In this document: piece after piece, positions 36,071-54,944 of the stretch
How positions within the stretch are numbered: position 1 is the first letter of the stretch
Layout of the letters: each line of letters opens with the position of its first letter
Source: an uncultured Planctomycetia bacterium
GTDB lineage: Bacteria; Omnitrophota; Gorgyraeia; Gorgyraeales; Gorgyraeaceae
Assembly: GCA_964415355.1 (NCBI GenBank)
Contig: CAYPYS010000004.1
Coordinates: 27,220-91,219 of the forward strand
DNA: 64,000 bases
Direction of reading: 5' to 3'
Program-made: the position numbers and the translations under genes
Notes under the pieces: generated by a model
Told to the model about the DNA's origin: nothing
The model's input: the letters and a program-made list of their open reading frames with translations, nothing else
The model's database searches: none

Positions 36071-36094
36071 AAGCTATTTTTTAGGAATAATAAT

Positions 36095-39874: not shown

Positions 39875-39890
39875 AGGAGCTCATTTCTAC

Positions 39891-39968
39891 GTCCCCATCG
39901 TCTAGTCTGGCCTAGGACATCAGATTTTCGATCTGACGACACCGGTTCGAATCCGGTTGGGGACGCCA
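39891..39968 (+). tRNA. tRNA-Glu (anticodon UUC)
   Basis: Manual cloverleaf. Acceptor GTCCCCA/TGGGGAC. Anticodon stem TCAGA/TCTGA with loop TTTTCGA. T-arm ACCGG TTCGAAT CCGGT. Encoded CCA. Confidence 0.85.
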
Positions 39969-40110: not shown

Positions 40111-40127
40111 GTCACTATTTGGTCACT
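40111..40127 (+). repeat. GTCACTATTTGGTCACT direct-repeat motif, left copy (candidate arm-type recombinase site)
   Basis: An identical 17-mer recurs exactly 2100 bp downstream. Each copy contains GTCACT twice. Confidence 0.5.
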
Positions 40128-40310
40128 GGACGTTAGCCCCCCTGGCCTGTCTACATTATTTCAGTACTTAAACATCCATGGAATTTTAGCCATATGGACA
40201 CTTTTTGGACACCAAGACCTGTCTCTGGGAAAGAAGAATTAAACGCCACTTCCGTAACTTCTATAAATACATAGCATTATAAAAACTAATCTTCAAAATC
40301 TTACAGCCCG

Positions 40311-40337
40311 GACATCAGGCTAGATATCTGATGTCCA
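40311..40337. repeat. inverted repeat GGACATCAG-N9-CTGATGTCC built from the tRNA-Glu/att core sequence
   Basis: Its arms are identical to the first 9 nt of the 58-bp direct repeat. Confidence 0.5.
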
Positions 40338-40347
40338 GGATCTCCTT

Positions 40348-40376
40348 TGTGTATATCACAATAATATGATATAATT
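40348..40376 (+). promoter_or_regulatory. candidate promoter TTGTGT-17-TGaTATAAT for the islet MBL-fold gene
   Basis: Extended -10 at 40368-40376. Similar architecture to the promoter at 42428-42457. Confidence 0.35.
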
Positions 40377-40388
40377 ACTATATAAATA

Positions 40389-40444
40389 GACATTTAAGCA
40401 GCATAGCCTTGATAATAGGACAAGGCTATTTTTTTGGGTGGATT
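40389..40444 (+). promoter_or_regulatory. conserved leader with terminator-like hairpin (ATAGCCTTG-loop-CAAGGCTAT + T7), ending 8 nt before the ATG; copy A
   Basis: About 55 nt alignable with 42467-42525 (AATAGAyAT..AAG..ATAGCCTT..GGACAAGGCTATTTTTTTG-8nt-ATG). Confidence 0.4.
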
Positions 40445-42181
40445 ATGATAAAATGTGGAAAAGTAGCTATAATGGTTGTTGTAAGCACAGCCTTTTTATT
40501 TACAAGCACGCTGCATTCTAACATATCTGCAGATACCTTGCGCCTTGAAGTTGGTCAAGGGGACGATACATTAGGGCGAATGGAGAAACTTTTGAAAACA
40601 AGGACATACGCTTATCCTGCCGGTGGCTTTGATGTAAGAGTTCGCAATCCTAATAACAATTATTATAACACTTCTCAAGGAGCTGTTTCTGTCGGGTTAT
40701 CTATGCAACATAGGTTATTATATCCAGATGTTGCAGATTATCCCACCGTAATTATTGCACCTAACGGAGATTGGACCGGCAAAGACGGCACTAATTTAAT
40801 GCAGATTTATTTTGCCATAGCATGTAATTTCTTCTTTCACAAAAGAAATGGAGTGGATAATCCAAAAACCACAATTGTGTGTAGGGCTGACCAGAAAGAT
40901 AGGATAATTGAGTATTTAAAGCTAGGCAACCCTTATTATTTGCCTAATAAGGCTAATTACCCCGAAGAGTTGATTAAGAGATTTGAGCGGGAAGCTATCT
41001 ATTTAGCAGATAGGGCAGTTATAGATGGGCAAATGCAAATGGCGGCACCATATCCTGATATGGTTACATTTGAGACATTCGATGAGAATTTAAATGAAGC
41101 AAGCATTGGGGATGTAGTGATAACAGATAAAAGAAATGGTACGTTTGCAGTTAATGATAAAGGGGAAGCAGAAGGCATCTTGGATGGTAGAAACTTGACA
41201 GAGCTCGAGTTAGAACTAGTAGGCGTAGAGCCTCTTTCTGATATACCAGAATTAGGAGTCACGTTTTTAGGAACTAGCAGTGGGATGGATGCAAATGGAT
41301 TGAGTAGTAGCCAAATTGTATGGGCAGGCGACCATCAGGTATTAGTTGATTTAGGGATAGCTACTGTTGGTGGGCTTAGGGCATTAGGTTTAGCGCCTTC
41401 CGATATTAGTCATATAGCTATTACTCATATGCATGAAGATCATGTTGCAGGTGCATTGCAGTATTTCCATTGGTGTAAGAGTATCGGCCATCCAATTCGT
41501 TTAATAATTGAACCTGGCATCTATGAGTTGTTCAAGGAACAGGCAAAACAAATATTAAATAATGACTTAGAGTCTGTTTATGATGTCGAGCTTGTCCCAA
41601 TAAAATTTTATGCAGCTATTGAGCTAGGCAAAGGAAGTGAAAAAGTTACAATAGAAGCTATCCCTGGATTTCACGGTACACCAGTGATGATGAATCGCTA
41701 TACTTACAAAGGAAAAACAATTAGCCATTCTAGCGATACTACATTTGACCCAATTCGTTTTGATAAGATTTTAGAGAACGACATGCCCGATAATATAAGA
41801 AAAGACTTATCGAGAGAGCTCGGGGTTGATAAAAATGTTCGCGTGTTTAATAAAGCTAGAGCAGATGAGCTTGCAGGTGTATTATTTGGGAGCAATGCTA
41901 CTGGAAACATGCCGTCCATTGTTATTTATGAAGGGGGCAATGCTGCAGCCTTGGGAGAGAATGCAAGCAATCATACAACGCCTTTTGCCTTTCAGACATT
42001 GACAGAATATGAGCAGAGGACAATATGGGTGAATCATGCTGCCAAATTGCCTGGAGACCAAGAGTTTCTCGTTAAACATGCTGCCCCAATAAGTACCTTA
42101 GCAGTAGATCTTAGGGAACTTACTGTTCAAGATGTAAATGTTATGTTATCAAATACTAAGGAGCTGCAGAGAAGCCTGTAA
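40445..42181 (+). CDS. secreted metallo-beta-lactamase-fold protein with about 300-aa N-terminal domain of unknown function
   Basis: Signal peptide MIKCGKVAIMVVVSTAFLFTSTLHS. HxHxDH motif (ITHMHEDHVAGA). Start chosen at ATG 40445; the ORF track's TTG at 40409 lies within the leader hairpin. Confidence 0.6.
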   Translation: MIKCGKVAIMVVVSTAFLFTSTLHSNISADTLRLEVGQGDDTLGRMEKLLKTRTYAYPAGGFDVRVRNPNNNYYNTSQGAVSVGLSMQHRLLYPDVADYPTVIIAPNGDWTGKDGTNLMQIYFAIACNFFFHKRNGVDNPKTTIVCRADQKDRIIEYLKLGNPYYLPNKANYPEELIKRFEREAIYLADRAVIDGQMQMAAPYPDMVTFETFDENLNEASIGDVVITDKRNGTFAVNDKGEAEGILDGRNLTELELELVGVEPLSDIPELGVTFLGTSSGMDANGLSSSQIVWAGDHQVLVDLGIATVGGLRALGLAPSDISHIAITHMHEDHVAGALQYFHWCKSIGHPIRLIIEPGIYELFKEQAKQILNNDLESVYDVELVPIKFYAAIELGKGSEKVTIEAIPGFHGTPVMMNRYTYKGKTISHSSDTTFDPIRFDKILENDMPDNIRKDLSRELGVDKNVRVFNKARADELAGVLFGSNATGNMPSIVIYEGGNAAALGENASNHTTPFAFQTLTEYEQRTIWVNHAAKLPGDQEFLVKHAAPISTLAVDLRELTVQDVNVMLSNTKELQRSL

Positions 42182-42210
42182 TACGAGTTATTATTAAAGA
42201 ATTTTTACCA

Positions 42211-42227
42211 GTCACTATTTGGTCACT
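42211..42227 (+). repeat. GTCACTATTTGGTCACT direct-repeat motif, right copy
   Basis: Identical to 40111-40127. Lies 76 nt before the right-hand 58-bp repeat. Confidence 0.5.
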
Positions 42228-42302
42228 AGCGATAATCTCCAAAATCATTATTTCATATAACTCACTATAAAATAATAAGTTACAATAACACAATCTCGTA
42301 TA

Positions 42303-42356
42303 GACATCAGATTTTCGATCTGACGACACCGGTTCGAATCCGGTTGGGGACGCCAA
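42303..42356 (+). pseudogene. tRNA-Glu 3' fragment (displaced att repeat; 3' 53 nt of the tRNA, no 5' half)
   Basis: Identical to positions 39916-39968 of the intact tRNA-Glu. The upstream sequence is unrelated to the tRNA. Confidence 0.8.
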
Positions 42357-42375
42357 TCTTGCCAGCCCCATACTT

Positions 42376-42410
42376 AACTTTACACTTTAACGTTGTTGAA
42401 ATGTAAAGTT
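42376..42410. repeat. REP/MITE-like element, copy 4 (form B)
   Basis: Exact 35-mer flanked by TA. Confidence 0.9.
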
Positions 42411-42427
42411 AAGGGCTTATTTTTTGC

Positions 42428-42457
42428 TTGCCCAATACCCCGCTATTATGGTATAAT
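42428..42457 (+). promoter_or_regulatory. candidate promoter TTGCCC-18-TGgTATAAT for the giant ORF
   Basis: Extended -10 TGGTATAAT at 42449-42457. Predicted transcription start about 62 nt before the ATG, as for the islet gene. Confidence 0.35.
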
Positions 42458-42466
42458 TATCAACAA

Positions 42467-42525
42467 TAGATATAAGAACAATATAGCCTTTATATCAAGG
42501 ACAAGGCTATTTTTTTGCCTAGCTT
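42467..42525 (+). promoter_or_regulatory. conserved leader with terminator-like hairpin (ATAGCCTT-loop-AAGGCTAT + T7), ending 8 nt before the ATG; copy B
   Basis: Alignable with 40389-40444. Confidence 0.4.
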
Positions 42526-45500
42526 ATGTTAAACTTTAAAAAACTATTAACTTGTAAGATCGTATCAGCATTTTTGGCTCTAACATTATGCCTTACATCT
42601 ACATGCTATGGCATAGAGCTACCTAAAAGATCCCACCTAAGAGCCCCGATTATGGGGAATTCCGAAAAAGGCAGAGAAAGGCTAGAAGATACCCTATCTG
42701 TTGTTTCTGGGATAAAAGATGCGGCAGATGCGAAGATTATCAAGAAAGACATCAGGAAGATATTATTAATAAATGCTGCGCCTAGGGCAAAGGGGCTGGA
42801 TGTCCGGCCGCCTTTTTCTTTGTATGGCTTATACATGGTTTTAAAGAAAGAATTTGGCGACAGGGTAGAGATTAAAGTTTTGGATCTTGCTATACAAGAT
42901 GCGGATTTCAAGATAAAAGATTATCTTATTCAAGAAGGACCAGATCTCGTTGGGGTTTCGACCAGTTGTTCATTTTATGCTGGTTTTGCCGAAGAAATGT
43001 CAAGAGTGGCTAAAGAAGCTCTCCCTGAGACAGTGTTAGTTAATGGAGGCATTCATGCCTCAGTGGTGCCATTTGAGGTTGTCCAAGAGAGCCCGCTGGA
43101 TTTTCTTGTTCAGGGCGACGGAGAGATTGTTTTCCCTGAGGCATTAAGGGTCATCATGGATGGCGATGGCGATATAAGTAAAGTGGGGGGTATTTGGTAT
43201 ATAGATTCTAATGGTCAGCCAGCTAGCACCGGTAATCCTGTGTTCCCGTCCCTTGACGATTTACCATTGGGTGTCCCAGATATATTGGACGAGGTAATAG
43301 GGAAATACGATTTATCATCTCCTTATTTTGGAGGAGAAAAGGCCTGGCAGTTATTTTGCAGCCGCGGCTGCCCTGTGGGGTGTAAGTTCTGCGCTGTAGA
43401 GGCTATATCAGGTCAAAAAATCCGCGCGATGAGCCCTGAGAGGGTTGTTGCAGAAATAAAACATATTGTAAGAAGATATAATATACATAATTTTAATTTT
43501 ACCGACGACTTTTTCACATTCAATATAGAGCGGGCCAGAAAGATCAGCGAGCTAATTCTCCAGGATCAGGAACTTTCTAATGTGAAATGGAAGATCACCA
43601 CAAGGGCTGACAGGCTTCCTGAGGATTTGGTAGAGATCATGGCAAGGGCAGGCTTGATACATATTAGTTTTGGAATAGAGAGCCCAGATCCTACAGTTTT
43701 AAAAGCGATACAGAAGAGCGCATCAGTAGGTTCTTATAAAAAAGCCACAGCGTTAGCGCATAAATATGGGATAAGGGTAAGGCATCTTTTGATGGCGGGG
43801 TTGCCTGAGCAGGATGAGCAGAGCATTGATAAAACAATAGATTTTTTAGAAGAGGCTAGGCCTGATGAAATATTTGTCGCTATATATACACCTTTTCCCG
43901 GAAGCGAATATTCTAAAAACCCGGAGTTATACGGCTTTCTACCCACTCATATAAGTTATGAAGATATGATTATGAGGGAAGTTGTACAAGAAGGAGACAT
44001 TGTTAAGCCGGTCGTCGCTGTGCCAACAAGATGGATGACAGCCGAAGAAATTTTAAGAGCGCGAGACAAAATCGTCACGGCGTTTGAAGAAATACAGAAA
44101 AAGGATATCAGGGGTCTCTTGAAAAACTTAAGGAGTCCTGATATGGAGACCCGCAAGATAGCAGCGCGGAGATTGCGTTACGTTAGTAGCGCACAACCAA
44201 AAACGTGTGAAGATGTGCTTGAAGAAGCGTCCCAGGGTTTAGTGGAAAGATTTCGAGATAAAAACAGGTTGGTTCTCGCGCTGGCTGGCCCAGGGGCTTC
44301 TGGAAAATTTACATTATACGCAGAACGTTTTAAAGCTTTCTTCAGTAGGGCTCTTTCTGTAACGCCGGATTCCGTTGTTATGCTTACCGACAATAATTAC
44401 CTCCTGCCGATATCAGAACGAAGGGATTTAGATTACTTGAGCAAATTTGAGATAGATAGATGGTTTAAAAATATAAGACTTTTACAAGAAGGGGAGGCGA
44501 TTTATTCGCCGCTATACGACAGGCTCAGGAACGATCGTTTAAGGATAGATGAAGAGATTATTGCGGAAATACTACAGAACAGAGGGGGTGAGTTGCAAGA
44601 CGGGACAGAGCCTGTCTATAGATTTGAGATAGAGGGCATAGAGATGGAGGGCGAGGAACTGGAGGAGATATACATCGACATCAATCCCGCAAATAATAGT
44701 GTCCGGGGTGAATTTGACATTCTGGAGAAGATTGATCCAGAAGGAAAGATTATTGTTGTCAAGGCAACCATTTGCTTATTGGACCCAGAGATAAATGATG
44801 GATACGATGAGAGATTTTTCGTGCAGTCAGATTTCAGTACTAGATTGATTAGGGGCGTGAAGCGCTGGAGAAAAGGAATGGGCAGGCAGCCGAGAGAAGC
44901 TGAATACATAGATATTCTCAAAAAAAGGCGGGCTATAGAGGATGATCCATATATTCTCCCTACAAGGATGGCTGCCAGATTTGTGATAGAAAATAATATT
45001 ACAACCCTAGAGCTAGAAGAAGCGCTAAGGGACAGCAATCCAGAAGTACGACGAATAGCGAATGAATTATCGGCATCTATGTCATCGTTGCATGCCTCTG
45101 GCAAAACGTCTCCCAAGGAATCACGCAATATTTACAATCCTCTGGTATCCCTGCGCGAAAATCGCGACCTGGAAACTTTTATTGAAATATGGCTGACCAG
45201 GCGCTATGACTCTTGGGGGCTCCGCGAAGACTTAGCAAAAGATATACTAGAGACCCTTTTACGTTACGCAGAGGATCTGGAACAAGCCATAAATCGTTTA
45301 TATTCGGAGGTCATTGATTTTGAGACTGATGAGGCGTGGCAAGAAGCATATAGCCGCTATAAGGAAGAGGTGAAATACGCAGATACCTATAATCAGATGG
45401 ATGTATATCTCGGGGGCCTGCCGGATGACTCAGTCATTGTTGACGTTGGGGCCGGGAATAATATGCTAGGTAAACTAATCGCAACTAAGCACCCCGGTTT

Positions 45501-48500
45501 TTCTGTGATAGGGACGGATGCGTATGATTATCATGAAGAACATGGCCTTGAGAATCTTGTCTTTCTCGTTCAACCAAGGCCTTTAAATATCCCATTGGAC
45601 GATAGATCCGCGGATATCGTGATTATGAATGCGATGTTACATCATGTGTCTCCGGATGACATGGGGGCTTTTTTACAGGAAATTCGCAGAGTGCTTAAAC
45701 CGGGAGGAAAAGTGATTCTGGTCGAGGACACTTACTCAATAACCCTCCCAGTTGAAAATGAGGCAACTGATAGTGAACTAACCAGCGAATTCTTAGACCT
45801 AGTTCGAGAACATGGCGATGCATTTGCGAAGCAATTTTTTGTTTTTGATGATTGGTATAGTAATTTGGTGGTGCATAAATGGCTCGGCATGTCTGTTCCA
45901 TACAATTTCCATTCAATGGAAGAATGGCAGGAGATATTTCAGTCCCATGGATTTGAGTTGGCACATGCGCGTCATACTGGTTTTCCGCAGAGGTCATTTC
46001 ACAAGCCGAATGTCGGAGTTCTGTTGTTTACAAATACCCAGGGTATTGAGGCTGATGCGATTACAATGGCAGCAGAAGCTGTGGATGAGTTTTTGGGCAC
46101 AGGGGAGCAGTTTGCCAAGCTTGCGCAGAAATATCCTTACGTAATTAAGATTGCAACAGAGGCGCTAGATAGGTCTGCTGCTGAATTTGCCTACGGCCTG
46201 AAGATCCTGGGCTCTTCGCCTGGAGAATTGCGCAAAGGAGTTTTGGAACTCGATGCGCTTTTCGCAGAGAGTCTTGGTCTTTCTGAGCCAGACACAGTCG
46301 ATGCCCTTAGGGAGATCATGCAAGCGGTCTTTGATAAGGCAGATCCCAAAGATGGCTATTTCTTAAAAGAGGAAAAACTTCAGGAGCTCCTTTACGAGCA
46401 TCCTCCGTTGCAGTTGTTAAAAGATGCAGGAATGTCCCTGGATCAGGTAATCCAGGAATATGGGGTCTATGAGGTCTTCAGCGTTGTCAGGCTTACTGAG
46501 CCGCTTGAGCATCTCGAGAGACTCTTAGAGGCGTATAACGCGCTCACGCCAGAAGATTTTGAAAAAAGGCCTCTCAAGCTGTTCGCGTTTTCCAGAGACC
46601 GTTATCCGGCCGCGCTAAAGATACTTGATAAAAAATTGACGGTTTGCAACGATAAACTCGCAGGGACTGTTATAGCAGTTCCATATAGCCCGGACCATGA
46701 TGAGCAATACGCTGCGCGCACGCTTAGAATATTGGGGCGGACAGTACACTATCTTTATGAGGTAATGACGTATTCAGATTTTTATGAGTCGCTTGTCTTG
46801 CTGGACCGAGAACATTTTGGCGCGCGTCTGGCAGATGCGATGCGGGGATACGGCCATCTCTACGGCGACGACCTAACGCTTAAGTCATCTGTTGTGCCAT
46901 TTTTCCACCCGCATCATCTACAGGAGATCATGTGCTGGGAATCCAGCGTGGAGTTATTGCATGTGCTTGCTTCAGACATACCGGGGCTGGATGGAACTCT
47001 TGCGAAGTATCAGAATACGCTCAGGGCGCTGGAGTTTTTGTCAGGAGAACAAGAGGAGCGCCTTGTGTCATTGGGCCTCCTGGACCTGATCTCCATCGCC
47101 ACGAAATCCTATGACACCACATACCTTACTCGCGAGATGGTCCGCGCGGATATCTATGCGCGGGCTGTAGGCGACAAGGGAGAAGCCTACTTGCTTGTAA
47201 AGCACAATCTTGATAAATTTGACATAGCAGATCTTTTGTCGCCAGATTCTGTGCGCAATCCTGCAAATCCAGAAACGCAGATCTTTAAAGATGTTCTCAG
47301 GGCAGTAAAAGAAAAGGATTACGACTTTTTAAGAAAAACCATTCCTGCGCTTATGCAGATGATGGAAGAGGCTCTTAAAGAAGAAAATGAAAATGCTGCG
47401 CATGACATCTATACCCACCTGATATATTCTATACACGCGTTAGAGAGAAGAGATGGCAGAAAAGGGGTTGAAAGATTTCATGCCAGGGCCGCGGCTCTTC
47501 ATATAGAGTTAAGAGCTCTGGCTGAAAAAATAAGCGCATCTTCGGAGCCTGTCTCTATCGAAAGAATCAAAGAGCTTATCATCGAAAATTTTATAGGCGA
47601 GCGAGAGTTAAGCTATTGGTCTATAGCTGAAAAACTGGGGATCAAGACATTTTATGTTATGGAGGCAATGGATGCGCTTGCAAAGGAAGGAAGGCTTATT
47701 AAGAGAGAGACCGATGAGGCGATTACGTATATCTGGGCTATTTCCGGCGGGTCAGGGCAAGACCATGAACAGGAGGAAGTCAAGGGCTCTCCTCCGGCAG
47801 TATTTGGCGTGTTGTCTGATGGTAAGCCGCGCACCAAAGAAGAAATCGCCGCCGCATTGAACCGCGCTGTCCGCACGATCGAGCCGGATCTCTACTTTTT
47901 GCGCGACTCTATGCTGCTTGATATAGGCAAAAGGCAGGGGAAAAACACATACGCTGTTAAAGCAGGGTTACTTAAAGAGCAAGGACTGATAACGATAATA
48001 CAGGAGATCCTGGATAGGGAATTTCAACCCGGCAGCATAACGAAAAATCTCAGAAATAGAGACAGGAGAGAAAGAATCAAAGAAACAATATTAGATGAGA
48101 TTACATCTTTTGAAAGCCCGAATGTCCTGGGCGATTTGTTTTCCGAAGACAAGCAGGCGGTCTACGAGGTATTCAGCGACGAGAAAGAGCTGGGCGATAT
48201 AGCAGAGTCGAGCAGCAGTTATGTGAGCAGGGTCGAGGAGAAAAAGTTTTTTACGCCTGCGCCTTTAGAAGGGTTGGCGGAAAGACACATTATGTGGGAT
48301 TTTATCAGGAGCCCGTCAACTGATCTGACGCAGATAATAAAAAGACAGGATTTATTAGAGGCCCTGGAAAAATCAAGCTCATTGCAGCTTGCCACTGATC
48401 TGAAAAACAGGTCTTACCTTATTCATAAAGGCATCGAAGGGCTTTTTGCCCCGGTTGACGTGAGTGAATATCATCGGGAGCCGGCCTTATATGCATACAG

Positions 48501-51500
48501 GCACGGTCACGGCGATACGCATTATATAAGGCAGCATGTAATGGGATGTCTGGATAGTATAAAAGAGGGGAAAGATGCTTTAGGTGAACTTATCGAAACG
48601 CTCTCGGGCATAGATGCGGTAATTATTAAGGAAGTGGTCGGAGTCCTTGAAAAAGGCCTGGCGAGCGTCGAGTATTTGAATAATGATTATTTTCTTGATC
48701 AAGCATATGACGAGTGGGACGCCAAGCGTTTAAGCGGCGGACTTAATAATAATTTAATGCGCCTGGGCGCGATGATAGAATTCGCGAATATTATAGTGAA
48801 GGACGGATATTCTAGGGCTGATTTTCACGCTGACCAGGCTGCCGGATACAAAGGGGGCTGGAATTTTGTGAGAGAGAAAAAAGGCGATAAGCCGCAGTCT
48901 CTGAATGATTCACCAAAGGACACGCTTATAACTATCCTGTGCGGGGCGAATATGGGAGGAAAGTCCTTTCATCTCGCGCAGAATTTCTATATGCAGCTCC
49001 TGGCGCAGAGCTTCGGATACGTGCCTGCTAAAAAAGGCAACTTCAGGATATACGATTCATTTCTATATCTAGACAGGGCGTCTACAGAGTCTTATTATGA
49101 CCTGAGCGCCTATGGTGTTGATATCACGCACTGGGTGGCGGCATTGGAGAAGATGACGGGCAGGACATTTATGCTCGTCGACGAAGGCCTTTCTACCACT
49201 TCGGCAGAAGATCAGTATTATATGCTTATGGCCATAGCAGAATACCTTAAAGGCCGCGGCGGAAGGACGCTCCTGGCAACGCATAACGAGGCATTTATAA
49301 ATAATTACACGCAGGAGAAAGATGCGGGTATATATCATTTCCCATTTACGATCGAGGAAAAAGAAGACGACGGCAAAGAGATAAACTATTCTTATAAACT
49401 GACACAGGGCCCGGGTGATTCCAGGGCGCTGGATGTGGCAGAGGCGTTGGGCCTGCCCGAGGAATTGATAGAGCTGGCCGCGCAATATCTCCGAGACGCA
49501 GTTAAAGAGGTAAGGCCGCTGGTTGATTCTGAATGGAGAAATCCCGAGCGTTATACAGAAGAGGAGCGCCAGGCCTTAAAGAAACAAGGATACAGAACGA
49601 TTTTTGGCACAGAGAAGGAAGAAGAGGAAAAGGCATTTCAATTATTCAGCAAAGACCGTGAATTTCAGCATTCGTTTTTTACAGGGACTCACATTGAAAC
49701 AGGAGAGAGATTTGAGGATAGAAAGTTCGGAGGGTGGCGTTACGATGGCTCTATGCTGGGAGGCTCTTTGATCCTTCAGCTATTGACAGAGAATAAGAGG
49801 CTTGAGCCACAGGAGATCCTGGAGCGCCAGAGGATGTTCGGGGAATTGTCCGAGAATGACAGGTATGAAGAATTAAAAGACATAGGATATAAGCTTGTCT
49901 GGATGCTGGAATTTATACCTATGTATTATATGCTAACAGGCAACAGTGGATTTTTGGATTTTAACAGGGTATTAAAACCACAGAGCTCTGAGCTGCGTCC
50001 TGGCAACGAGCGCATGCTGAGCACGCTGGAATACTGCATTATGTTTCTGCGGATGAACCAGAAGATATTAGGCGAAGATTTCTCCGAGAGATTCACCGAA
50101 TTACTCAAGAGGCTTGAGAGAGGCAAAGAGCTTTTGCTCTCCTACGAAGAACATGTTGCGAATCAGGACATACTTGAGATACAGGCATTGCAAGCGGATG
50201 AGTATGACCGAGAGATAACCGACGAGGAAATAATCAGGGAGTATCTCGAGCTTGCCAGCGATGAACCTGACAGGGAAAAGTGGCAGGGCCGGCTGACGCG
50301 GCGCAGGATAAGAGAATATATGACGTGGCTCAAGGAACATGATAGAGAGAGATGGAGAGAGATAGAGTGGTGGCATTATGACGGGAACCATCCTCTGAGG
50401 GAGCTGATAAATAAAGTCATGCTGGGGTATAGTGCGATATCGGTTATGCATGATAGAGGAGGGGATTTTGACGCAGAGCAGGTAAGAGATGAATTTATTG
50501 CGCTCGCTGATGAAGAGCCGCTGGAGGCAAAGGAAAGGTGGGGGCACAGGATAACAGTCGGGAGGATCCAGGAATACCTGGATTTCCTACTGCAGAAGCA
50601 TGGTCACTATACGCGCGATGAGAATACAAAGGAAAAGATAAATACTGTCAATGATTTAAGGCATAATGTCTCTTCTACGCAGAGAGGGTTGGGCATCGAG
50701 GATAAAGAGATTCGCGCGATATTCGATTCTTTATTCGGCATAAAAGGCGATTACAATGACAGGGTGTTTGATGACAGGATATTTCGTTCCCTTACCGATC
50801 TTTTTCAGGCGTTTGAGCATATCAATAAAAAGATGCCTCCGAAGTCGATATTCGAATGCGATTTAGAATCTATCAAGGAAGAGATACGCTTTTTTGCGAG
50901 CTATTATAGAGAAAGATACAAAGAAGCAGATCTCGCGTATGACAGTAGATGGCCCAGGCCTCTGGTCCTTAGTTTTATTTTGGAGATGCTCGTGGAAGAG
51001 AAAGACTGGATCCGGGAATTTCTCGGCATATTAAGAAGCTATGACTCAGTGCATCTGCATCAGATGGCTGGTTCTCTCGAGGCAGGATTCAGGGATCTTC
51101 TATCAATAATCAAAGAAGACTGGTGGTTTAGAGAAAGCAAGGTGCTTTTTGGCTTTGAAGAAGAAACCCTGGTAGAGCTTATTAGAAATGATATAAAAGA
51201 GGCCAGGAGATATTTTAAAAGACAGAAAGAAAATATAGAGCCTTTATGTACAAGAGAGGAACTGGAGGCAATCGAGCTAGAATTAGAACAGGGTTCCAGC
51301 GAGAAATTGCTTAACCTGATCGACAGATTTAACGGCATGGGGCCCGAGGCATTGTATGAGATATTAAATTCAGTTTATGAAAGCCAGATGGAAGAGATGT
51401 TGCGTGATTACGCCGGTGTCTCGCGCGCATACAGCAGGATTTTTGCAGAGCACTATTTTCTGGGAAGCAGTGAAAGCGTCAAGTATATCAGGACTATCTT

Positions 51501-52758
51501 AAAAAGTCGGGGAACGACAGATTCTAGAAAGATACGCGATTTTGCCCAGAACTTTAGATGGCTTACCAACAGGGATTATGATGGCCGGTTGTTCCCCTAT
51601 CATGAGATCGAAAAGGACAAGTCAAAGAGGCAAAAGGAGGCAGAAAGCTTTAGGGTATTTTATCAGAGAGAGGTTATAGACACAGGCCTGATAGAGGAGA
51701 TAGAGGCAGCGTTAGGAGAGCTGGATGATGCATACAGGAAAGTAGAGGCCTTTGTCAGGAAATATAATATTAAATTCAAAGACCGCGAGGGCCGCAATGT
51801 AAATAAAGAGACGATGAAGAGAATCAGAAAAAATGGTGATCTGTATAGGCTCGAAGAGAAGGTATTTGGTATGTATGGAAATGCAATGTATTCGGTGCTT
51901 GATAGTTATAGCTTGCGAGATAAAGTGAAATCGCTTAATGGCGCCATATATGAGACCCAGGCCATTGCCCTTTTCGGTCACATGATAGCAACTCAGGGGT
52001 TTAATGCAGTGGATTTTAATTCAGACGGCTCAGTTGATATTAAGGGCATGTTCAGCATGTTCAAGCCCGGGTCTGAGCAGGAGCTGAATGACGTTCATTT
52101 TGGCGAGGATGAATACGCAAGGCTTATAGCTGCGCCAAATATGTCCGGTAAGACATTTTATCTAAAGGCGCTTGTAATGGCAATGCTCTCGGCGCTAAAT
52201 ACCGGATTTATCCCGGCAGAGTCTGCGACCATGCCGTTATTCGATTTCGTGATATATTTCGACAGGGTGACCGCAAAGCTGGACAGAAATCTGAGCGCAC
52301 TTGGAAACGAGGTCGAGCTATGGAAAAAGTTCTTTAATATCTTAAAAAGTGAAACGAGGGTCTTTGCCGCTGCTTGCGTTGACGAGGCGTTTTCTACTAC
52401 CTCTCCGGGGTATCAGGCGTCGCTTGTGTATGCGATAGTGATGGAGATGATAAGAAACGGCCAATACCTGGCAATCGCCACACACAATCATGATGTCCTG
52501 CAGGTCTTGAGGGAGCTGGAAAAGGATTTACTGAAGGCCTATACCCTGAAGATCCGCATCGATGAGGAAAGCGGCGGAGTAGATTTTAGCTATGAATTAG
52601 AGGAGCTCGAAGAAGGCGAGATGACATTTTCTGAGGCAATAGCAGTTGCCAGGACCCTGGGCATGCCTGAAGAGATCTTGCGTACGGCAGAGGAATTAAA
52701 GCTGAACGCAGAGGTCCAGTCACCTCTATACCACGTCGCACCCCAAACCGACCTCTAA
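42526..52758 (+). CDS. giant multidomain protein (3410 aa): N-terminal signal-like segment, B12-binding radical SAM, P-loop (uridine-kinase/PRK-like), class I SAM methyltransferase, long helical regions, two MutS-like (core + domain V ABC ATPase) modules
   Basis: Uninterrupted ORF. Radical SAM motif CSRGCPVGCKFC (aa 278-289). P-loop LALAGPGASGKFT and SPLYDRLRNDR. Methyltransferase motifs VIVDVGAGNNMLGK, ADIVIMNAMLHH, LKPGGKVILVED. First MutS-like module: GANMGGKS (aa 2140-2147), MLVDEGLSTTS, TLLATHN, GLPEELIELA. Second MutS-like module: APNMSGKT (aa 3203-3210), CVDEAFSTTS, AIATHN, GMPEEILRTAEEL. Confidence 0.8.
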   Translation: MLNFKKLLTCKIVSAFLALTLCLTSTCYGIELPKRSHLRAPIMGNSEKGRERLEDTLSVVSGIKDAADAKIIKKDIRKILLINAAPRAKGLDVRPPFSLYGLYMVLKKEFGDRVEIKVLDLAIQDADFKIKDYLIQEGPDLVGVSTSCSFYAGFAEEMSRVAKEALPETVLVNGGIHASVVPFEVVQESPLDFLVQGDGEIVFPEALRVIMDGDGDISKVGGIWYIDSNGQPASTGNPVFPSLDDLPLGVPDILDEVIGKYDLSSPYFGGEKAWQLFCSRGCPVGCKFCAVEAISGQKIRAMSPERVVAEIKHIVRRYNIHNFNFTDDFFTFNIERARKISELILQDQELSNVKWKITTRADRLPEDLVEIMARAGLIHISFGIESPDPTVLKAIQKSASVGSYKKATALAHKYGIRVRHLLMAGLPEQDEQSIDKTIDFLEEARPDEIFVAIYTPFPGSEYSKNPELYGFLPTHISYEDMIMREVVQEGDIVKPVVAVPTRWMTAEEILRARDKIVTAFEEIQKKDIRGLLKNLRSPDMETRKIAARRLRYVSSAQPKTCEDVLEEASQGLVERFRDKNRLVLALAGPGASGKFTLYAERFKAFFSRALSVTPDSVVMLTDNNYLLPISERRDLDYLSKFEIDRWFKNIRLLQEGEAIYSPLYDRLRNDRLRIDEEIIAEILQNRGGELQDGTEPVYRFEIEGIEMEGEELEEIYIDINPANNSVRGEFDILEKIDPEGKIIVVKATICLLDPEINDGYDERFFVQSDFSTRLIRGVKRWRKGMGRQPREAEYIDILKKRRAIEDDPYILPTRMAARFVIENNITTLELEEALRDSNPEVRRIANELSASMSSLHASGKTSPKESRNIYNPLVSLRENRDLETFIEIWLTRRYDSWGLREDLAKDILETLLRYAEDLEQAINRLYSEVIDFETDEAWQEAYSRYKEEVKYADTYNQMDVYLGGLPDDSVIVDVGAGNNMLGKLIATKHPGFSVIGTDAYDYHEEHGLENLVFLVQPRPLNIPLDDRSADIVIMNAMLHHVSPDDMGAFLQEIRRVLKPGGKVILVEDTYSITLPVENEATDSELTSEFLDLVREHGDAFAKQFFVFDDWYSNLVVHKWLGMSVPYNFHSMEEWQEIFQSHGFELAHARHTGFPQRSFHKPNVGVLLFTNTQGIEADAITMAAEAVDEFLGTGEQFAKLAQKYPYVIKIATEALDRSAAEFAYGLKILGSSPGELRKGVLELDALFAESLGLSEPDTVDALREIMQAVFDKADPKDGYFLKEEKLQELLYEHPPLQLLKDAGMSLDQVIQEYGVYEVFSVVRLTEPLEHLERLLEAYNALTPEDFEKRPLKLFAFSRDRYPAALKILDKKLTVCNDKLAGTVIAVPYSPDHDEQYAARTLRILGRTVHYLYEVMTYSDFYESLVLLDREHFGARLADAMRGYGHLYGDDLTLKSSVVPFFHPHHLQEIMCWESSVELLHVLASDIPGLDGTLAKYQNTLRALEFLSGEQEERLVSLGLLDLISIATKSYDTTYLTREMVRADIYARAVGDKGEAYLLVKHNLDKFDIADLLSPDSVRNPANPETQIFKDVLRAVKEKDYDFLRKTIPALMQMMEEALKEENENAAHDIYTHLIYSIHALERRDGRKGVERFHARAAALHIELRALAEKISASSEPVSIERIKELIIENFIGERELSYWSIAEKLGIKTFYVMEAMDALAKEGRLIKRETDEAITYIWAISGGSGQDHEQEEVKGSPPAVFGVLSDGKPRTKEEIAAALNRAVRTIEPDLYFLRDSMLLDIGKRQGKNTYAVKAGLLKEQGLITIIQEILDREFQPGSITKNLRNRDRRERIKETILDEITSFESPNVLGDLFSEDKQAVYEVFSDEKELGDIAESSSSYVSRVEEKKFFTPAPLEGLAERHIMWDFIRSPSTDLTQIIKRQDLLEALEKSSSLQLATDLKNRSYLIHKGIEGLFAPVDVSEYHREPALYAYRHGHGDTHYIRQHVMGCLDSIKEGKDALGELIETLSGIDAVIIKEVVGVLEKGLASVEYLNNDYFLDQAYDEWDAKRLSGGLNNNLMRLGAMIEFANIIVKDGYSRADFHADQAAGYKGGWNFVREKKGDKPQSLNDSPKDTLITILCGANMGGKSFHLAQNFYMQLLAQSFGYVPAKKGNFRIYDSFLYLDRASTESYYDLSAYGVDITHWVAALEKMTGRTFMLVDEGLSTTSAEDQYYMLMAIAEYLKGRGGRTLLATHNEAFINNYTQEKDAGIYHFPFTIEEKEDDGKEINYSYKLTQGPGDSRALDVAEALGLPEELIELAAQYLRDAVKEVRPLVDSEWRNPERYTEEERQALKKQGYRTIFGTEKEEEEKAFQLFSKDREFQHSFFTGTHIETGERFEDRKFGGWRYDGSMLGGSLILQLLTENKRLEPQEILERQRMFGELSENDRYEELKDIGYKLVWMLEFIPMYYMLTGNSGFLDFNRVLKPQSSELRPGNERMLSTLEYCIMFLRMNQKILGEDFSERFTELLKRLERGKELLLSYEEHVANQDILEIQALQADEYDREITDEEIIREYLELASDEPDREKWQGRLTRRRIREYMTWLKEHDRERWREIEWWHYDGNHPLRELINKVMLGYSAISVMHDRGGDFDAEQVRDEFIALADEEPLEAKERWGHRITVGRIQEYLDFLLQKHGHYTRDENTKEKINTVNDLRHNVSSTQRGLGIEDKEIRAIFDSLFGIKGDYNDRVFDDRIFRSLTDLFQAFEHINKKMPPKSIFECDLESIKEEIRFFASYYRERYKEADLAYDSRWPRPLVLSFILEMLVEEKDWIREFLGILRSYDSVHLHQMAGSLEAGFRDLLSIIKEDWWFRESKVLFGFEEETLVELIRNDIKEARRYFKRQKENIEPLCTREELEAIELELEQGSSEKLLNLIDRFNGMGPEALYEILNSVYESQMEEMLRDYAGVSRAYSRIFAEHYFLGSSESVKYIRTILKSRGTTDSRKIRDFAQNFRWLTNRDYDGRLFPYHEIEKDKSKRQKEAESFRVFYQREVIDTGLIEEIEAALGELDDAYRKVEAFVRKYNIKFKDREGRNVNKETMKRIRKNGDLYRLEEKVFGMYGNAMYSVLDSYSLRDKVKSLNGAIYETQAIALFGHMIATQGFNAVDFNSDGSVDIKGMFSMFKPGSEQELNDVHFGEDEYARLIAAPNMSGKTFYLKALVMAMLSALNTGFIPAESATMPLFDFVIYFDRVTAKLDRNLSALGNEVELWKKFFNILKSETRVFAAACVDEAFSTTSPGYQASLVYAIVMEMIRNGQYLAIATHNHDVLQVLRELEKDLLKAYTLKIRIDEESGGVDFSYELEELEEGEMTFSEAIAVARTLGMPEEILRTAEELKLNAEVQSPLYHVAPQTDL

Positions 52759-52780
52759 CTTCACACCTTAATTTTTTCAT

Positions 52781-52815
52781 AACTTTACACTTCAACAATG
52801 TTGAAGTGTAAAGTT
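52781..52815. repeat. REP/MITE-like element, copy 5 (variant; perfectly palindromic core), preceded by a degenerate half-copy at 52756-52769
   Basis: AACTTTACACTTCAACAATGTTGAAGTGTAAAGTT. Confidence 0.8.
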
Positions 52816-52844
52816 AGCGGGGGTCATTATTTTGCGTATCTAAG

Positions 52845-54794: not shown

Positions 54795-54911
54795 ATGAAG
54801 AGAAAAAAACACAGGTTTGTCAGGCTCAGCAAGGTCCGGGCCTACCTTTTGCTGAAGAGCATCAAAAGGCAGCTTAAGTCGCAGGAAAAAAAGCTCTCCC
54901 ATCACGCCTAA
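54795..54911 (+). CDS. possible 38-aa Arg/Lys-rich small protein (MKRKKHRFVRLSKVRAYLLLKSIKRQLKSQEKKLSHHA)
   Basis: The ORF ends in a TAA supplied by REP copy 6, like many real genes here. No strong Shine-Dalgarno sequence; it could be spurious. Confidence 0.2.
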   Translation: MKRKKHRFVRLSKVRAYLLLKSIKRQLKSQEKKLSHHA

Positions 54912-54944
54912 CTTTACACTTTAACGTTGTTGAAATGTAAAGTT
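54910..54944. repeat. REP/MITE-like element, copy 6 (form B)
   Basis: Exact 35-mer. Confidence 0.9.

What the first reader, a model, noticed from the sequence alone, without database searches (positions are those of the whole stretch)
42526..52758. Uninterrupted 3410-aa ORF fusing a B12-radical SAM enzyme, a P-loop kinase-like domain, a SAM methyltransferase and two MutS-like ATPase modules
The sequence shows one 10.2-kb open frame with these successive domains:
- a hydrophobic N-terminal signal-like segment
- a B12-binding-like Rossmann region and a radical SAM core (CSRGCPVGCKFC, Cys at nt 43369-43398)
- a P-loop LALAGPGASGKFT with a downstream SPLYDRLRNDR block that resembles uridine kinase/phosphoribulokinase
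- a class I SAM methyltransferase (VIVDVGAGNNMLGK, ADIVIMNAMLHH, LKPGGKVILVED; about nt 45400-46030)
- long helical linkers
- two modules each with a MutS-like core/lever segment and a domain V ABC ATPase (GANMGGKS...MLVDEGLSTTS...TLLATHN...GLPEELIELA, and APNMSGKT...CVDEAFSTTS...AIATHN...GMPEEILRTAEEL).

There is no MutS mismatch-binding domain I and no Smr domain. From established knowledge, MutS-like domain V modules are DNA-dependent sliding-clamp ATPases, and B12-radical SAM enzymes and class I methyltransferases are modifying enzymes.

From this I infer a single polypeptide coupling nucleic-acid or polymer tracking (2x MutS-like) to covalent modification chemistry (radical SAM, methyltransferase, kinase-like). 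I know of no described equivalent.

The gene sits immediately beside a tRNA-Glu integration hotspot. It also shares promoter/leader architecture with the islet cargo gene, which fits either a defence or DNA/RNA-modification role or a giant surface-associated multi-enzyme like those seen in ultra-small episymbiotic bacteria.
Basis: partly seen in the sequence, partly recalled or inferred. Interest (0 to 1): 0.88.

Follow-up and report, generated by a model that had tools for sequence, protein, structure and literature searches.

The report
Mosaic giant enzyme with tandem MutS-like ATPases
The 10.2-kb gene is real and encodes one protein that strings together units found as separate proteins elsewhere, including a previously undescribed "two MutS ATPases in one chain" unit, but nothing shows that the parts work together as a DNA-scanning modification machine.

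Summary
The ORF 42526-52758 (3410 aa) is real. It is intact in at least five independent assemblies, and strain differences within it are 13 synonymous to 1 non-synonymous.

The "linkers" are conserved domains in their own right: a ~400-aa domain of unassigned fold, two probable winged-helix domains, and a conserved inter-ATPase region.

The protein is a mosaic of units that stand alone elsewhere:
- aa 70-863 is 48% identical to a 1253-aa rSAM-kinase protein.
- aa 1181-1614 is 47% identical to a 621-aa protein.
- aa 1856-3392 is 50% identical and collinear with a 1593-aa "tandem MutS-like" protein.

The tandem MutS-like family has more than 100 members in Omnitrophota, Margulisbacteria/Saganbacteria and CPR MAGs, all annotated as hypothetical. 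It is predicted to fold as a single-chain MutS pseudo-dimer.

The fusion was found only in this species. A relative with 87% DNA identity has a 340-aa gene at the same tRNA-Glu/phoU site instead. None of about 30 other tandem-MutS loci has the other units adjacent.

My reading is co-targeted autonomous modules behind one shared N-terminal leader, not a proven "track-and-modify" machine.

The parts
39891..39968 (+). Intact tRNA-Glu (UUC); left border of the variable region
   Evidence: ARAGORN; Rfam 60.5 bits
39916..39973 (+). Copy 1 of the 58-nt exact direct repeat (3' part of tRNA-Glu), att-like
   Evidence: the repeat finder family D2, 100% identity
40445..42181 (+). Islet cargo gene: metallo-beta-lactamase-fold protein with a leader-like N-terminus. 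Atypical composition (GC 39.7%, GC3 32%)
   Evidence: Pfam Lactamase_B; weak Apyc1 hit. Composition. N-terminus
42303..42360 (+). Copy 2 of the 58-nt tRNA-Glu 3' fragment; right border of the 2.4-kb islet, immediately upstream of the giant gene
   Evidence: weak Rfam tRNA hit at 42279-42352
42375..42411 (.). 37-nt REP-like palindrome. A genome-wide intergenic element, not a cassette border
   Evidence: 13 copies, all intergenic, between 33.5 and 63.3 kb
42428..42525 (+). Promoter-like site (TTGCCC-18-TATAAT with TG) and a leader hairpin ATAGCCTT..AAGGCTAT followed by T7. Collinear with the region upstream of the islet gene, with the ATG at the same offset
42526..52758 (+). Giant ORF, 3410 aa
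42526..42690 (+). N-terminal leader (aa 1-55): signal-peptide-like segment (C-Y-G at positions -3 to -1) followed by a conserved IELP..HLR..MGNSE.G.ERL motif. Shared with otherwise unrelated large proteins P0189, P0178, P0174 and P0190
42733..45114 (+). rSAM-kinase unit (aa 70-863): B12-binding domain (aa 113-206), radical SAM core (aa 278-441; Cys 282/286/289), HEAT-like motif, uridine-kinase/PRK-like domain (about aa 579-830; P-loop GPGASGKF), HEAT-like motif
   Evidence: 48% identity over 799 aa to stand-alone P0012. Pfam and NCBIfam hits. PDB uridine kinase
45418..45966 (+). Class I SAM methyltransferase (aa 965-1147), of the small-molecule Methyltransf_11/25/23 type
46066..47325 (+). Conserved ~400-aa domain of unassigned function (aa 1181-1600). 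Invariant motifs in alignment A1: DFExR, HYxxE, PHxxxE
47560..48114 (+). Two probable winged-helix domains (about aa 1679-1745 and 1751-1863). The second (..TIEPDLYFLRD..) is 51-58% identical in five otherwise different proteins
   Evidence: Weak Pfam GntR and HVO_A0114 hits.. Weak PDB profile hits, all winged-helix proteins. Same order in P0190
48091..52701 (+). Tandem MutS-like unit (aa 1856-3392), collinear with stand-alone proteins of 1200-1700 aa
   Evidence: 50% identity over 1552 aa to P0042. Family
48934..49491 (+). MutS domain V ATPase 1 (aa 2137-2322): GANMGGKS, VDEGLSTTS, ATHN
   Evidence: 13 synonymous strain SNPs lie in aa 2086-2308
49603..51825 (+). Conserved, mostly helical region between the ATPases (about aa 2360-3100), including the core/lever of module 2
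   Evidence: Collinear conservation. Helical block 613-956 in the AF2 model of P0081
52123..52698 (+). MutS domain V ATPase 2 (aa 3200-3391): APNMSGKT, VDEAFSTTS, ATHN
52780..52816 (.). REP-like palindrome 22 nt after the stop codon

Best explanation
This is a genuine, selectively maintained, lineage-specific mosaic protein. One N-terminal leader is followed by units that in related organisms are separate proteins, several of them carrying a similar leader:
1. A class-B (cobalamin) radical SAM enzyme joined to a uridine-kinase/PRK-like nucleotide-binding domain.
2. A small-molecule-type SAM methyltransferase.
3. A conserved ~400-aa domain with invariant His/Glu/Asp motifs.
4. Two probable winged-helix domains.
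5. A complete tandem MutS-like ATPase.

Shown: the modular homologies, the intact reading frame and the strain-level purifying selection.

Inferred:
- The leader anchors or targets the chain. The bulk most likely stays on the cytoplasmic face, where ATP, SAM, Fe-S clusters and B12 are available.
- The units act largely autonomously, and the fusion serves co-targeting and co-expression. This matches the multi-enzyme long proteins described for Omnitrophota.
- The C-terminal unit folds as a single-chain MutS pseudo-heterodimer. Its two ATPase domains, both with intact Walker A, Walker B and H-loop, pair head to head. Each is preceded by a MutS core/lever.
- That unit works as an ATP-gated clamp or sensor on a nucleic acid, more likely DNA than ribosomes. 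It does not recognise mismatches, because domain I is absent.
For: Integrity and selection:
- The ORF is intact in at least five assemblies.
- Strain SNPs in the gene are 13 synonymous and 1 non-synonymous.
- Codon usage is host-like (r=0.85 with flanking core genes).

Modularity:
- P0012 (rSAM-kinase, 48% identity, complete gene with unrelated neighbours).
- P0051 and about 10 stand-alone 380-450-aa homologues of the 400-aa domain.
- P0042 and more than 100 tandem MutS-like proteins (110 hits below 1e-30).

No conserved linkage:
- tblastn of the N-terminal units against all other loci found nothing adjacent to tandem-MutS genes.
- A different fusion partner set occurs in the L013 5287-aa ORF.

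Shared leader:
- The giant, P0189, P0178, P0174 and P0190 share it. Degenerate versions occur in P0012, P0051, P0156, P0042 and the neighbouring MBL protein.
- The 5' DNA cassette is shared with the MBL gene, with the ATG in register.

Pseudo-dimer:
- AF2 model of family member P0081: pLDDT 87.1, pTM 0.86.
- Tandem-ABC proteins (UvrA, ABC-F) align over 300-338 residues at 3.2-3.7 A. That length requires both ATPase domains in the canonical relative orientation.
- Walker A Lys, Walker B Asp-Glu and the H-loop His are invariant in both modules across 20 members. In the 80-sequence alignment both Walker A lysines, the H-loop histidines and module 1's Walker B Asp-Glu are invariant, and module 2's Asp-Glu is nearly so (at least 90%).

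DNA lean: winged-helix domains in the giant and a Fis-type HTH fused to the tandem unit in L013.

Precedent: Omnitrophota multi-enzyme long proteins with methyltransferase, radical SAM, kinase and HEAT content, mostly unique in sequence and read as membrane-anchored with cytoplasmic bulk (bioRxiv 10.64898/2026.06.07.730766).
Against: - A fusion kept under selection is classically taken as evidence of functional coupling, and I cannot exclude that here.
- The leader obeys the -3/-1 rule of a cleavable Sec signal. That would put the protein outside the cell, which conflicts with a cytoplasmic reading. Topology was not tested.
- The organism's phylum was not established. Only the nearest homologues are from Omnitrophota MAGs.
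- At 3.4 kAA the protein is far shorter than the >=10 kAA proteins covered by the cited preprint.
- The pseudo-dimer model is of a 29%-identical family member, not the giant itself. I could not inspect its coordinates.
- The winged-helix domains also occur in leader-tagged proteins that lack MutS units, so they are not specific partners of the ATPase unit.
- No substrate is known for any module.
Confidence: 0.5

Rival explanations
1. Track-and-modify machine. The tandem MutS-like clamp, helped by the winged-helix domains, loads on DNA or RNA and holds the radical SAM, methyltransferase and kinase-like domains on the polymer to modify it. The role would be defence or epigenetic marking.
For: - The fusion itself is under purifying selection.
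- It has probable nucleic-acid-binding winged-helix domains.
- It sits in a strain-variable region at a tRNA hotspot. The neighbour is an MBL gene weakly similar to anti-Pycsar Apyc1. The relative carries an HTH/HATPase_c_2/DUF4325 gene with weak Csa3/CARF hits at the same site.
- Generic PADLOC hits: rSAM to PDC-M51A (E=9e-12) and the methyltransferase to mad2 (E=1e-10).
Against: - No co-occurrence of the units in about 30 other loci.
- The tandem unit lies in housekeeping contexts elsewhere: efp, recJ, murD, aminoacyl-tRNA synthetases.
- The methyltransferase is of the UbiE/Methyltransf_11 type, with no DNA-methylase family hit.
- No PADLOC model matches the MutS units.
- The kinase P-loop lacks the Ser/Thr after Lys (GKF).
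- The giant has host-like composition, unlike the adjacent islet.
Confidence: 0.17
2. Translation-linked ATPase. The tandem MutS-like unit acts like MutS2 on stalled or collided ribosomes or on RNA, and the N-terminal enzymes are unrelated passengers.
For: - efp lies adjacent or close in 4 of 27 loci.
- The MutS family is known to function in translation as well as repair (abstract of PMC12292046).
Against: - No Smr or KOW domain.
- Msh2, Msh3 and Msh6 score at least as well as MutS2.
- The efp linkage is limited to a few, partly related, lineages.
- HTH-type domains are fused to the unit in two lineages.
Confidence: 0.12
3. Exported or delivered effector polyprotein. The leader is a cleavable secretion signal, and the chain is exported to the surface or into a host or prey cell, where host ATP and SAM are used.
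For: - The leader has n-, h- and c-regions with C/V/A-Y-G/A at positions -3 to -1, followed by a conserved post-signal motif. It is shared by several large multi-domain proteins and, in degenerate form, by the neighbouring MBL protein.
- Giant proteins of predatory or episymbiotic Omnitrophota are mostly predicted to be extracellular (bioRxiv 10.1101/2023.11.21.568195).
Against: - Radical SAM (Fe-S cluster, B12), two ATPases, a nucleotide-binding domain and a SAM methyltransferase all need cytoplasmic cofactors and cofactor loading.
- Most tandem MutS-like and 400-aa-domain homologues in other phyla have no hydrophobic N-terminus.
- West-Roberts et al. themselves call some predicted localisations unlikely.
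- The 2026 preprint reads such enzyme content as membrane-anchored and cytoplasmic.
Confidence: 0.1
4. Built-in cobalamin chaperone or reactivase. The MutS-like ATPases service the B12 cofactor of the fused radical SAM domain, by analogy with KamC of lysine 5,6-aminomutase.
For: - The best NCBIfam hit of both ATPase modules is NF052383, "lysine 5,6-aminomutase reactivase ATPase KamC": 80.3 and 74.9 bits, against 73.7 and 61.4 for MutS1.
- The same chain carries a B12-binding domain.
- The window holds four more B12-rSAM paralogues.
Against: - The hits cover only the ATPase part of the KamC model (positions 309-508 of 508). They are far below its cut-off of 300 bits, and the margin over MutS1 is small.
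- Tandem MutS-like genes are not next to B12 enzymes elsewhere.
- The rSAM-kinase unit stands alone without any MutS in L003.
- From general knowledge, class B radical SAM enzymes are not known to need reactivases.
- No literature on KamC could be retrieved.
Confidence: 0.06
5. Artefact: a frameshifted operon, a chimeric assembly or a decaying pseudogene.
For: - One JGI assembly gives a product (P0007) that ends out of frame near aa 1766.
- Two ENA scaffolds break at the same position, 45656.
Against: - The full frame is identical in JGI (three contigs), ENA and NCBI records.
- The ENA "splits" are runs of N.
- Strain SNPs are 13 synonymous to 1 non-synonymous.
- Both halves are 48-50% identical to intact homologues over their whole length.
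Confidence: 0.03

Closest known systems
MutS2 (Bacillus subtilis, Thermus and Thermotoga; PDB 7qv3, 7vuf, 9kce)
   Different: No Smr nuclease or KOW domain. Two non-identical modules sit in one chain instead of forming a homodimer. About 740 conserved residues lie between the two ATPases. Scores 102 bits against a TIGR01069 cut-off of 400.
MutS1 homodimer and eukaryotic Msh2-Msh6 / Msh2-Msh3 heterodimers
   Different: The two subunits are covalently joined in one chain. There is no domain I (Phe-X-Glu) or domain II. Sequence similarity is limited to the last lever helix plus domain V (Taq residues 485-760). Scores 126 bits against a TIGR01070 cut-off of 642.
UvrA and ABC-F proteins (single-chain tandem ABC ATPases acting on DNA or ribosomes)
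   Different: The ATPase subfamily is different (MutS type). The inserted domains differ: a MutS core/lever rather than UvrA zinc modules or the ABC-F linker.
Class B (cobalamin-dependent) radical SAM enzymes: BchE, HpnJ, ApyD, P-methyltransferases
   Same: An N-terminal B12-binding domain plus a CxxxCxxC radical SAM core. NCBIfam E-values from 1e-41 to 1e-34.
   Different: Below every equivalog cut-off (for example BchE, 141 vs 481 bits). Uniquely followed by a uridine-kinase/PRK-like domain, a pairing conserved in P0012. The substrate is unknown.
Omnitrophota multi-enzyme long proteins (bioRxiv 10.64898/2026.06.07.730766; 10.1101/2023.11.21.568195)
   Same: Many unrelated enzyme domains tiled along one chain (methyltransferase, radical SAM, kinase, HEAT-like spacers), an N-terminal hydrophobic anchor or signal, uniqueness in sequence, and nearest homologues in Omnitrophota MAGs.
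   Different: Only 3.4 kAA, whereas those studies treat proteins of 10 kAA or more. MutS is not mentioned in either paper. The phylum of this organism was not established.
KamC, reactivase ATPase of lysine 5,6-aminomutase (NCBIfam NF052383)
   Same: A MutS-type ATPase associated with a B12 enzyme. It is the top NCBIfam hit for both modules.
   Different: Only the ATPase half of the model matches. 149 bits for the whole protein against a cut-off of 300. No supporting genomic association in the wider family.

Membership tests
MutS family (Pfam MutS_V, ABC-type ATPase) | Domain V passes the curated score; Walker A GxxxxGK[ST], Walker B DE and H-loop His are present | tested here: met
   PF00488 132.6 bits (cut-off 30.2), two stretches. 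K, DE and H are invariant in both modules across 20 family members.
MutS family | Helical core/lever (domain III) N-terminal to the ATPase | tested here: inconclusive
   In the giant, MutS_III scores only E=0.03. Some family members reach E=5e-4. In the AF2 model of family member P0081, 407-436 residues superpose on Msh2, Msh6 and Taq MutS, more than domain V alone. The giant's own unit was not modelled.
MutS1 (mismatch repair MutS, TIGR01070) | Mismatch-binding domain I (Phe-X-Glu), connector domain II, and the equivalog score | tested here: not met
   No MutS_I or MutS_II hit at E<=1. 126.5 bits against a cut-off of 641.7.
MutS2 (TIGR01069) | C-terminal Smr nuclease domain and the equivalog score | tested here: not met
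   No Smr hit. 102.4 bits against a cut-off of 400.
KamC reactivase ATPase (NF052383) | Full-length match above the curated cut-off; association with lysine 5,6-aminomutase genes | tested here: not met
   149 bits against a cut-off of 300; only model positions 309-508 of 508 match. No kamD or kamE in the window.
Tandem MutS-like family (defined here: P0042, P0043, P0045 and others) | Collinear match over both modules and the region between them | tested here: met
   50% identity over 1552 aa to P0042; 30-45% to more than 15 others.
Class B radical SAM (B12-binding) | B12-binding domain plus a radical SAM core with CxxxCxxC | tested here: met
   PF02310 41.7 bits (cut-off 32.1); PF04055 95.1 bits (cut-off 29.5); C282-x3-C286-x2-C289.
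Specific rSAM equivalogs (BchE, HpnJ, ApyD, PhpK-type, HpnR) | Curated equivalog score | tested here: not met
   The best is BchE, 141 bits against 481. All are below cut-off.
Phosphoribulokinase / uridine kinase family (PF00485) | Pfam gathering score; canonical Walker A GK[ST]; lid arginines | tested here: inconclusive
   No Pfam hit in the giant. NCBIfam uridine kinase gives E=2.7e-9 but 36.8 bits against a cut-off of 180. The ortholog P0012 passes PF00485 (25.4 vs 22). The P-loop reads GKF rather than GK[ST] in both proteins. The Asp of the DxxY motif, the P.YD motif and the lid arginines align with Thermus uridine kinase.
Class I SAM-dependent methyltransferase | Pfam score; motif I (VDVGxGxG-like) | tested here: met
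   Methyltransf_11 49 bits (cut-off 21.2); Methyltransf_25 45.6 bits (cut-off 27); motif VIVDVGAGNN.
Known anti-phage defence systems (PADLOC 2.0) | A match to system-specific protein models | tested here: not met
   Only generic radical SAM and methyltransferase hits. Nothing matches the MutS units.
tRNA-associated genomic island | Direct repeat of the tRNA 3' part; absence from a close relative; integrase; atypical composition | tested here: inconclusive
   The 58-nt exact repeat flanks only the 2.4-kb MBL islet. Both the islet and the giant gene are absent from the relative with 87% DNA identity, which has tRNA-Glu, a 340-aa gene and phoU. No integrase was seen. The islet has atypical composition; the giant gene is host-like.
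Omnitrophota multi-enzyme long proteins | At least 10 kAA; many distinct Pfams tiled along the chain; Omnitrophota host | tested here: inconclusive
   Domain tiling is met. Length is not met (3.4 kAA). Host phylum is not established; the nearest homologues are from Omnitrophota MAGs.

The most novel reading that the evidence does not exclude
The tandem MutS-like unit represents an undescribed MutS paralogue. It would be a single-chain pseudo-heterodimeric clamp without a mismatch-binding domain, conserved in ultra-small bacteria (CPR, Omnitrophota, Margulisbacteria). In this organism it would be physically coupled to a cobalamin radical SAM enzyme, a methyltransferase and a kinase-like domain, forming a machine that scans a nucleic acid and chemically modifies it.
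Probability: 0.15. Interest if true: 0.85.

Novelty: new variant of a known kind. Interest (0 to 1): 0.55.

Why it matters
Three things would matter if followed up.

1. **A new branch of the MutS family.** The C-terminal 1540 aa belongs to a sizeable family that is annotated everywhere as "hypothetical" or loosely as "MutS". It has two diverged MutS ATPase modules in one chain and is predicted to form an intramolecular dimer. It is conserved in reduced genomes of CPR, Omnitrophota and Margulisbacteria. Neither of the two Omnitrophota giant-protein papers I searched mentions MutS, and a search for MutS-like together with radical SAM and B12 found no paper. I did not open the MutS classification papers found. 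It is a tractable target: test whether its ATPase responds to DNA or to ribosomes.

2. **A dissectable model for very long multi-enzyme proteins.** Here every bead of the chain has a stand-alone homologue for comparison. Several of those homologues carry the same N-terminal leader. That makes co-targeting a testable reason for the fusion.

3. **A possible lineage-specific sorting signal.** The conserved leader, and the promoter/leader DNA cassette shared with the neighbouring islet gene, point to one.

The specific "scan-and-modify" idea would be striking, but it is currently unsupported.

Tried and rejected
- **Whole-protein word-based search**. It returned only the protein itself, so segment searches were needed.
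- **KamC / B12-reactivase lead.** Three literature searches found nothing usable. Genomic association is absent. I kept it only as a low-probability rival.
- **Defence system.** PADLOC gave only generic hits.
- **Palindromes as cassette borders.** The palindromes flanking the gene looked like borders, but the element occurs 13 times in intergenic regions of the window. It is also present in the relative. It is a REP-like genome element.
- **Split ORFs as evidence of an operon.** The splits in ENA records are N gaps from scaffolding.
- **Metagenome scan with the winged-helix domain.** Found one locus only, the contig encoding P0190.
- **Host taxonomy.** The window's genome is not among the GTDB representatives hit. 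Cluster look-ups of seven housekeeping proteins returned no names. The phylum remains unproven.
- **Pfam scans of other large carriers of the tandem unit or the winged-helix domain** (P0073, P0074, P0174, P0189, P0178) added little.

Full report

The window contains one ATG-initiated ORF, 42526-52758 (+), of 3410 codons without a stop. Profile searches confirm every named domain.
- B12-binding, aa 113-206.
- Radical_SAM, aa 278-441, with C282-x3-C286-x2-C289.
- Class I methyltransferase, aa 965-1147.
- Two MutS domain V ATPases, aa 2137-2322 and about 3200-3391.

The P-loop domain gets no Pfam hit in the giant. It matches NCBIfam uridine kinase (E=2.7e-9, below the family cut-off). It also aligns collinearly with Thermus and human uridine kinases (E about 2e-3). 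Its 43%-identical counterpart in the homologue P0012 passes the Pfam PRK gathering score. The P-loop is atypical in both proteins, GKF rather than GK[ST]. I therefore call it kinase-like, not a proven kinase.

No MutS domain I, II or IV and no Smr domain is detected.

The ORF is not an assembly artefact.
- The same protein occurs on three JGI contigs from at least two samples (3300009314 and 3300009374), and in ENA and NCBI records.
- Two ENA "split" versions are caused by runs of N.
- Among four other assemblies, the differences inside the gene are 13 synonymous and 1 non-synonymous.
- One JGI variant (P0007) ends out of frame near aa 1766 and remains unexplained.

**2. What the "linkers" are**

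A sensitive search with aa 1151-2350, followed by pairwise comparisons, shows that the protein is a string of units, each with stand-alone homologues.

- **rSAM-kinase unit.** aa 70-863 is 48% identical over 799 aa to P0012. P0012 is a complete 1253-aa gene flanked by cvpA, NIF3, dnaG and rpoD, with no MutS or methyltransferase nearby.
- **Winged-helix pair.** aa 1679-1745 and 1751-1863 look like winged-helix domains. The evidence is weak but consistent: GntR, HVO_A0114, Z-alpha, ArsR and TFE hits. The second domain (..TIEPDLYFLRD..) is 51-58% identical in five otherwise unrelated proteins.
- **Tandem MutS-like unit.** aa 1856-3392 is collinear and 50% identical with P0042 (1593 aa), and 30-45% identical to many others.

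**3. The tandem MutS-like family**

- 110 cluster representatives score below 1e-30.
- Named members come from Omnitrophota, Margulisiibacteriota/Saganbacteria, Peregrinibacteria/Peribacteria, Gracilibacteria, Levybacteria, Buchananbacteria and Saccharimonas MAGs, plus some MAGs labelled Planctomycetales.
- All are annotated as "hypothetical" or generically as "MutS".
- The two modules are 27% identical to each other. Orthologous modules are 30-50% identical, so the duplication predates the family's spread.
- Walker A Lys, Walker B Asp-Glu and the H-loop His are invariant in both modules across 20 members. The broader 80-sequence alignment retains both lysines, the H-loop histidines and module 1's Asp-Glu as invariant; module 2's Asp-Glu is conserved in at least 90%.
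- A profile of the family matches solved MutS structures only from the last lever helix through domain V (Taq residues 485-760).

- Single-chain tandem ABC proteins (UvrA, ABC-F) superpose over 300-338 residues at 3.2-3.7 A.

The last result requires both ATPase domains to be in the canonical head-to-head arrangement. I infer a single-chain MutS pseudo-heterodimer made of two core-plus-ATPase modules.

Gene neighbourhoods are housekeeping and not conserved. efp is adjacent or near in 4 of 27 loci.

**4. Is the fusion conserved?**

No.
- tblastn of all N-terminal units against about 36 fetched loci found none next to a tandem MutS-like gene.
- The 90%-identity cluster of the giant holds only strain variants. 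No diverged full-length relative appeared in the 5.8-billion-cluster search.
- In a MAG labelled Planctomycetales, the tandem unit is embedded in a different 5287-aa ORF. That ORF carries TPR repeats, a 5-formyl-THF cyclo-ligase domain and a C-terminal Fis-type HTH.

The tandem unit is therefore fused promiscuously, and twice with HTH-type domains.

**5. Genomic setting**

- The window spans the replication origin region: dnaA at 30570, then gyrB and gyrA. GC skew rises from about 30 kb.
- The giant gene lies between tRNA-Glu and phoU.
- A 58-nt exact repeat of the tRNA 3' part (39916-39973 and 42303-42360) brackets a 2.4-kb islet. The islet carries only an MBL-fold gene of atypical composition.
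- A relative with 87% DNA identity keeps the synteny hisG, Na/Pi transporter, phoU. Between phoU and tRNA-Glu it has a single 340-aa HTH/HATPase_c_2/DUF4325 gene. It has neither the islet nor the giant.
The giant gene itself has host-like GC and codon usage (r=0.85).
- The 37-nt palindromes on both sides of the gene are a REP-like element found in 13 intergenic regions.

**6. Leader**

The giant gene and the islet gene share a collinear ~100-nt 5' cassette. It consists of an extended -10 element, a hairpin followed by T7, and an ATG at the same offset.

The encoded N-terminus has a signal-peptide-like segment with C-Y-G at positions -3 to -1. It is followed by IELP..HLR..MGNSE.G.ERL. This N-terminus is 28-50% identical to the N-termini of P0189, P0178, P0174 and P0190, which are otherwise unrelated large proteins. 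This supports Met1 as the start, not the Met43 chosen by the JGI gene call.

Degenerate versions (a hydrophobic segment followed by an S/T-L-R motif) head several proteins:
- the MBL protein
- P0012
- P0156
- P0184

P0051 and P0042, the closest stand-alone homologues of two units, also begin with a hydrophobic segment, but I did not identify the motif in them. Most homologues in other phyla lack any hydrophobic N-terminus.

I infer that in this lineage these enzymes share one destination. The fusion places several of them behind a single leader.

**7. Comparison with the known**

Two preprints describe Omnitrophota long proteins. The 2026 preprint defines a class of "multi-enzyme metabolic clusters" with methyltransferase, radical SAM, kinase and HEAT content. 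Most are sequence singletons and are read as membrane-anchored with cytoplasmic bulk. Neither paper mentions MutS. The present protein looks like a small, fully dissectable example of that phenomenon, but the host phylum is unproven.

**8. Verdict**

- The interpretation as a coupled "tracking plus modification" machine is not supported, though it is not excluded.
- The most solid new item is the tandem MutS-like family.
- KamC is the top NCBIfam hit for both ATPase modules. I treat that as a lead only: the hit covers just the ATPase part, is below cut-off, and has no supporting association in the wider family.

Noticed in passing
window 33503-63257 (for example 33506-33540, 36036-36070, 39839-39875, 42375-42411, 52780-52816, 54910-54944, 62207-62241): A 37-nt REP-like palindrome (TAACTTTACACTTTAAC..GTTGAAATGTAAAGTTA) sits in 13 intergenic regions of the 33.5-63.3 kb half of the window. 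There is none in the first 33 kb. It is also present in the relative with 87% DNA identity (L037-L040).
   Followed up: partly
window 1-30400: A lower-GC block (35-41% against 43-48% elsewhere) without the palindrome. It holds four further B12-binding radical SAM paralogues (5454-6923, 9664-11121 on the minus strand, 15443-16867, 27451-28926), each 25-28% identical to the giant's rSAM domain. It also holds two asparagine synthases, three PMT_2/ArnT-like glycosyltransferases and a GDSL-lipase/TPR protein. It looks like a surface-glycan or lipid modification island.
   Followed up: partly
window 30570-39841: The replication-origin neighbourhood: dnaA (30570-31907), a probable dnaN (32074-33171, not scanned), gyrB and gyrA. 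Cumulative GC skew rises steadily from about 30 kb. The giant gene lies about 12 kb from dnaA and is co-oriented with replication.
   Followed up: partly
window 36095-39841: gyrA is interrupted by an intein with a LAGLIDADG homing-endonuclease domain (Intein_splicing plus LAGLIDADG_3, about aa 148-560). A 1713-aa variant of this GyrA exists in ENA records (P0206), which may indicate a second insertion.
   Followed up: no
window 39974-42302; MBL gene 40445-42181: A 2.4-kb islet bracketed by the 58-nt tRNA-Glu repeat. It has no integrase and carries one MBL-fold gene weakly similar to anti-Pycsar Apyc1 (25.9 bits, cut-off 50). The motif GTCACTATTTGGTCACT occurs exactly at 40111 and 42211, the first just inside the islet's left end and the second about 90 nt inside its right end.
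   Followed up: partly
window 40365-40455 and 42445-42535: A shared promoter, leader and start-codon cassette: TGnTATAAT, a hairpin ATAGCCTT..AAGGCTAT followed by T7, and an ATG 28 nt after AGGACAAGGC. It occurs only upstream of the islet gene and the giant gene. The terminator-like hairpin directly before the start codon could be an attenuator; this was not tested.
   Followed up: partly
giant aa 1-55 (window 42526-42690); P0189, P0178, P0174, P0190 (L043 3290-3445): A conserved N-terminal leader, consisting of a signal-like segment plus the HLR..MGNSE.G.ERL motif. It heads several otherwise unrelated large multi-domain proteins. This may be a lineage-specific sorting signal.
   Followed up: partly
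L037 10796-11818, L038 3328-4350 (relative of the window organism): At the position of the giant gene, the related species carries a 340-aa HTH/HATPase_c_2/DUF4325 gene with weak Csa3/CARF-type PADLOC hits. It directly abuts tRNA-Glu.
   Followed up: partly
L006 5353-14290 and L007 1168-10105: Two tandem MutS-like genes (1546 and 1429 aa) lie side by side, followed by a 206-aa unknown gene and a NYN-domain gene.
   Followed up: no
L013 107-15970: A 5287-aa ORF in a MAG labelled Planctomycetales. It combines TPR repeats, a 5-formyl-THF cyclo-ligase domain, a tandem MutS-like unit and a C-terminal Fis-type HTH.
   Followed up: partly
window 45656 (L041 5911-5945, L042 5722-5766): Two independent ENA scaffolds have an N gap at exactly the same position inside the methyltransferase domain. 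This suggests a local assembly problem or strain heterogeneity there.
   Followed up: no
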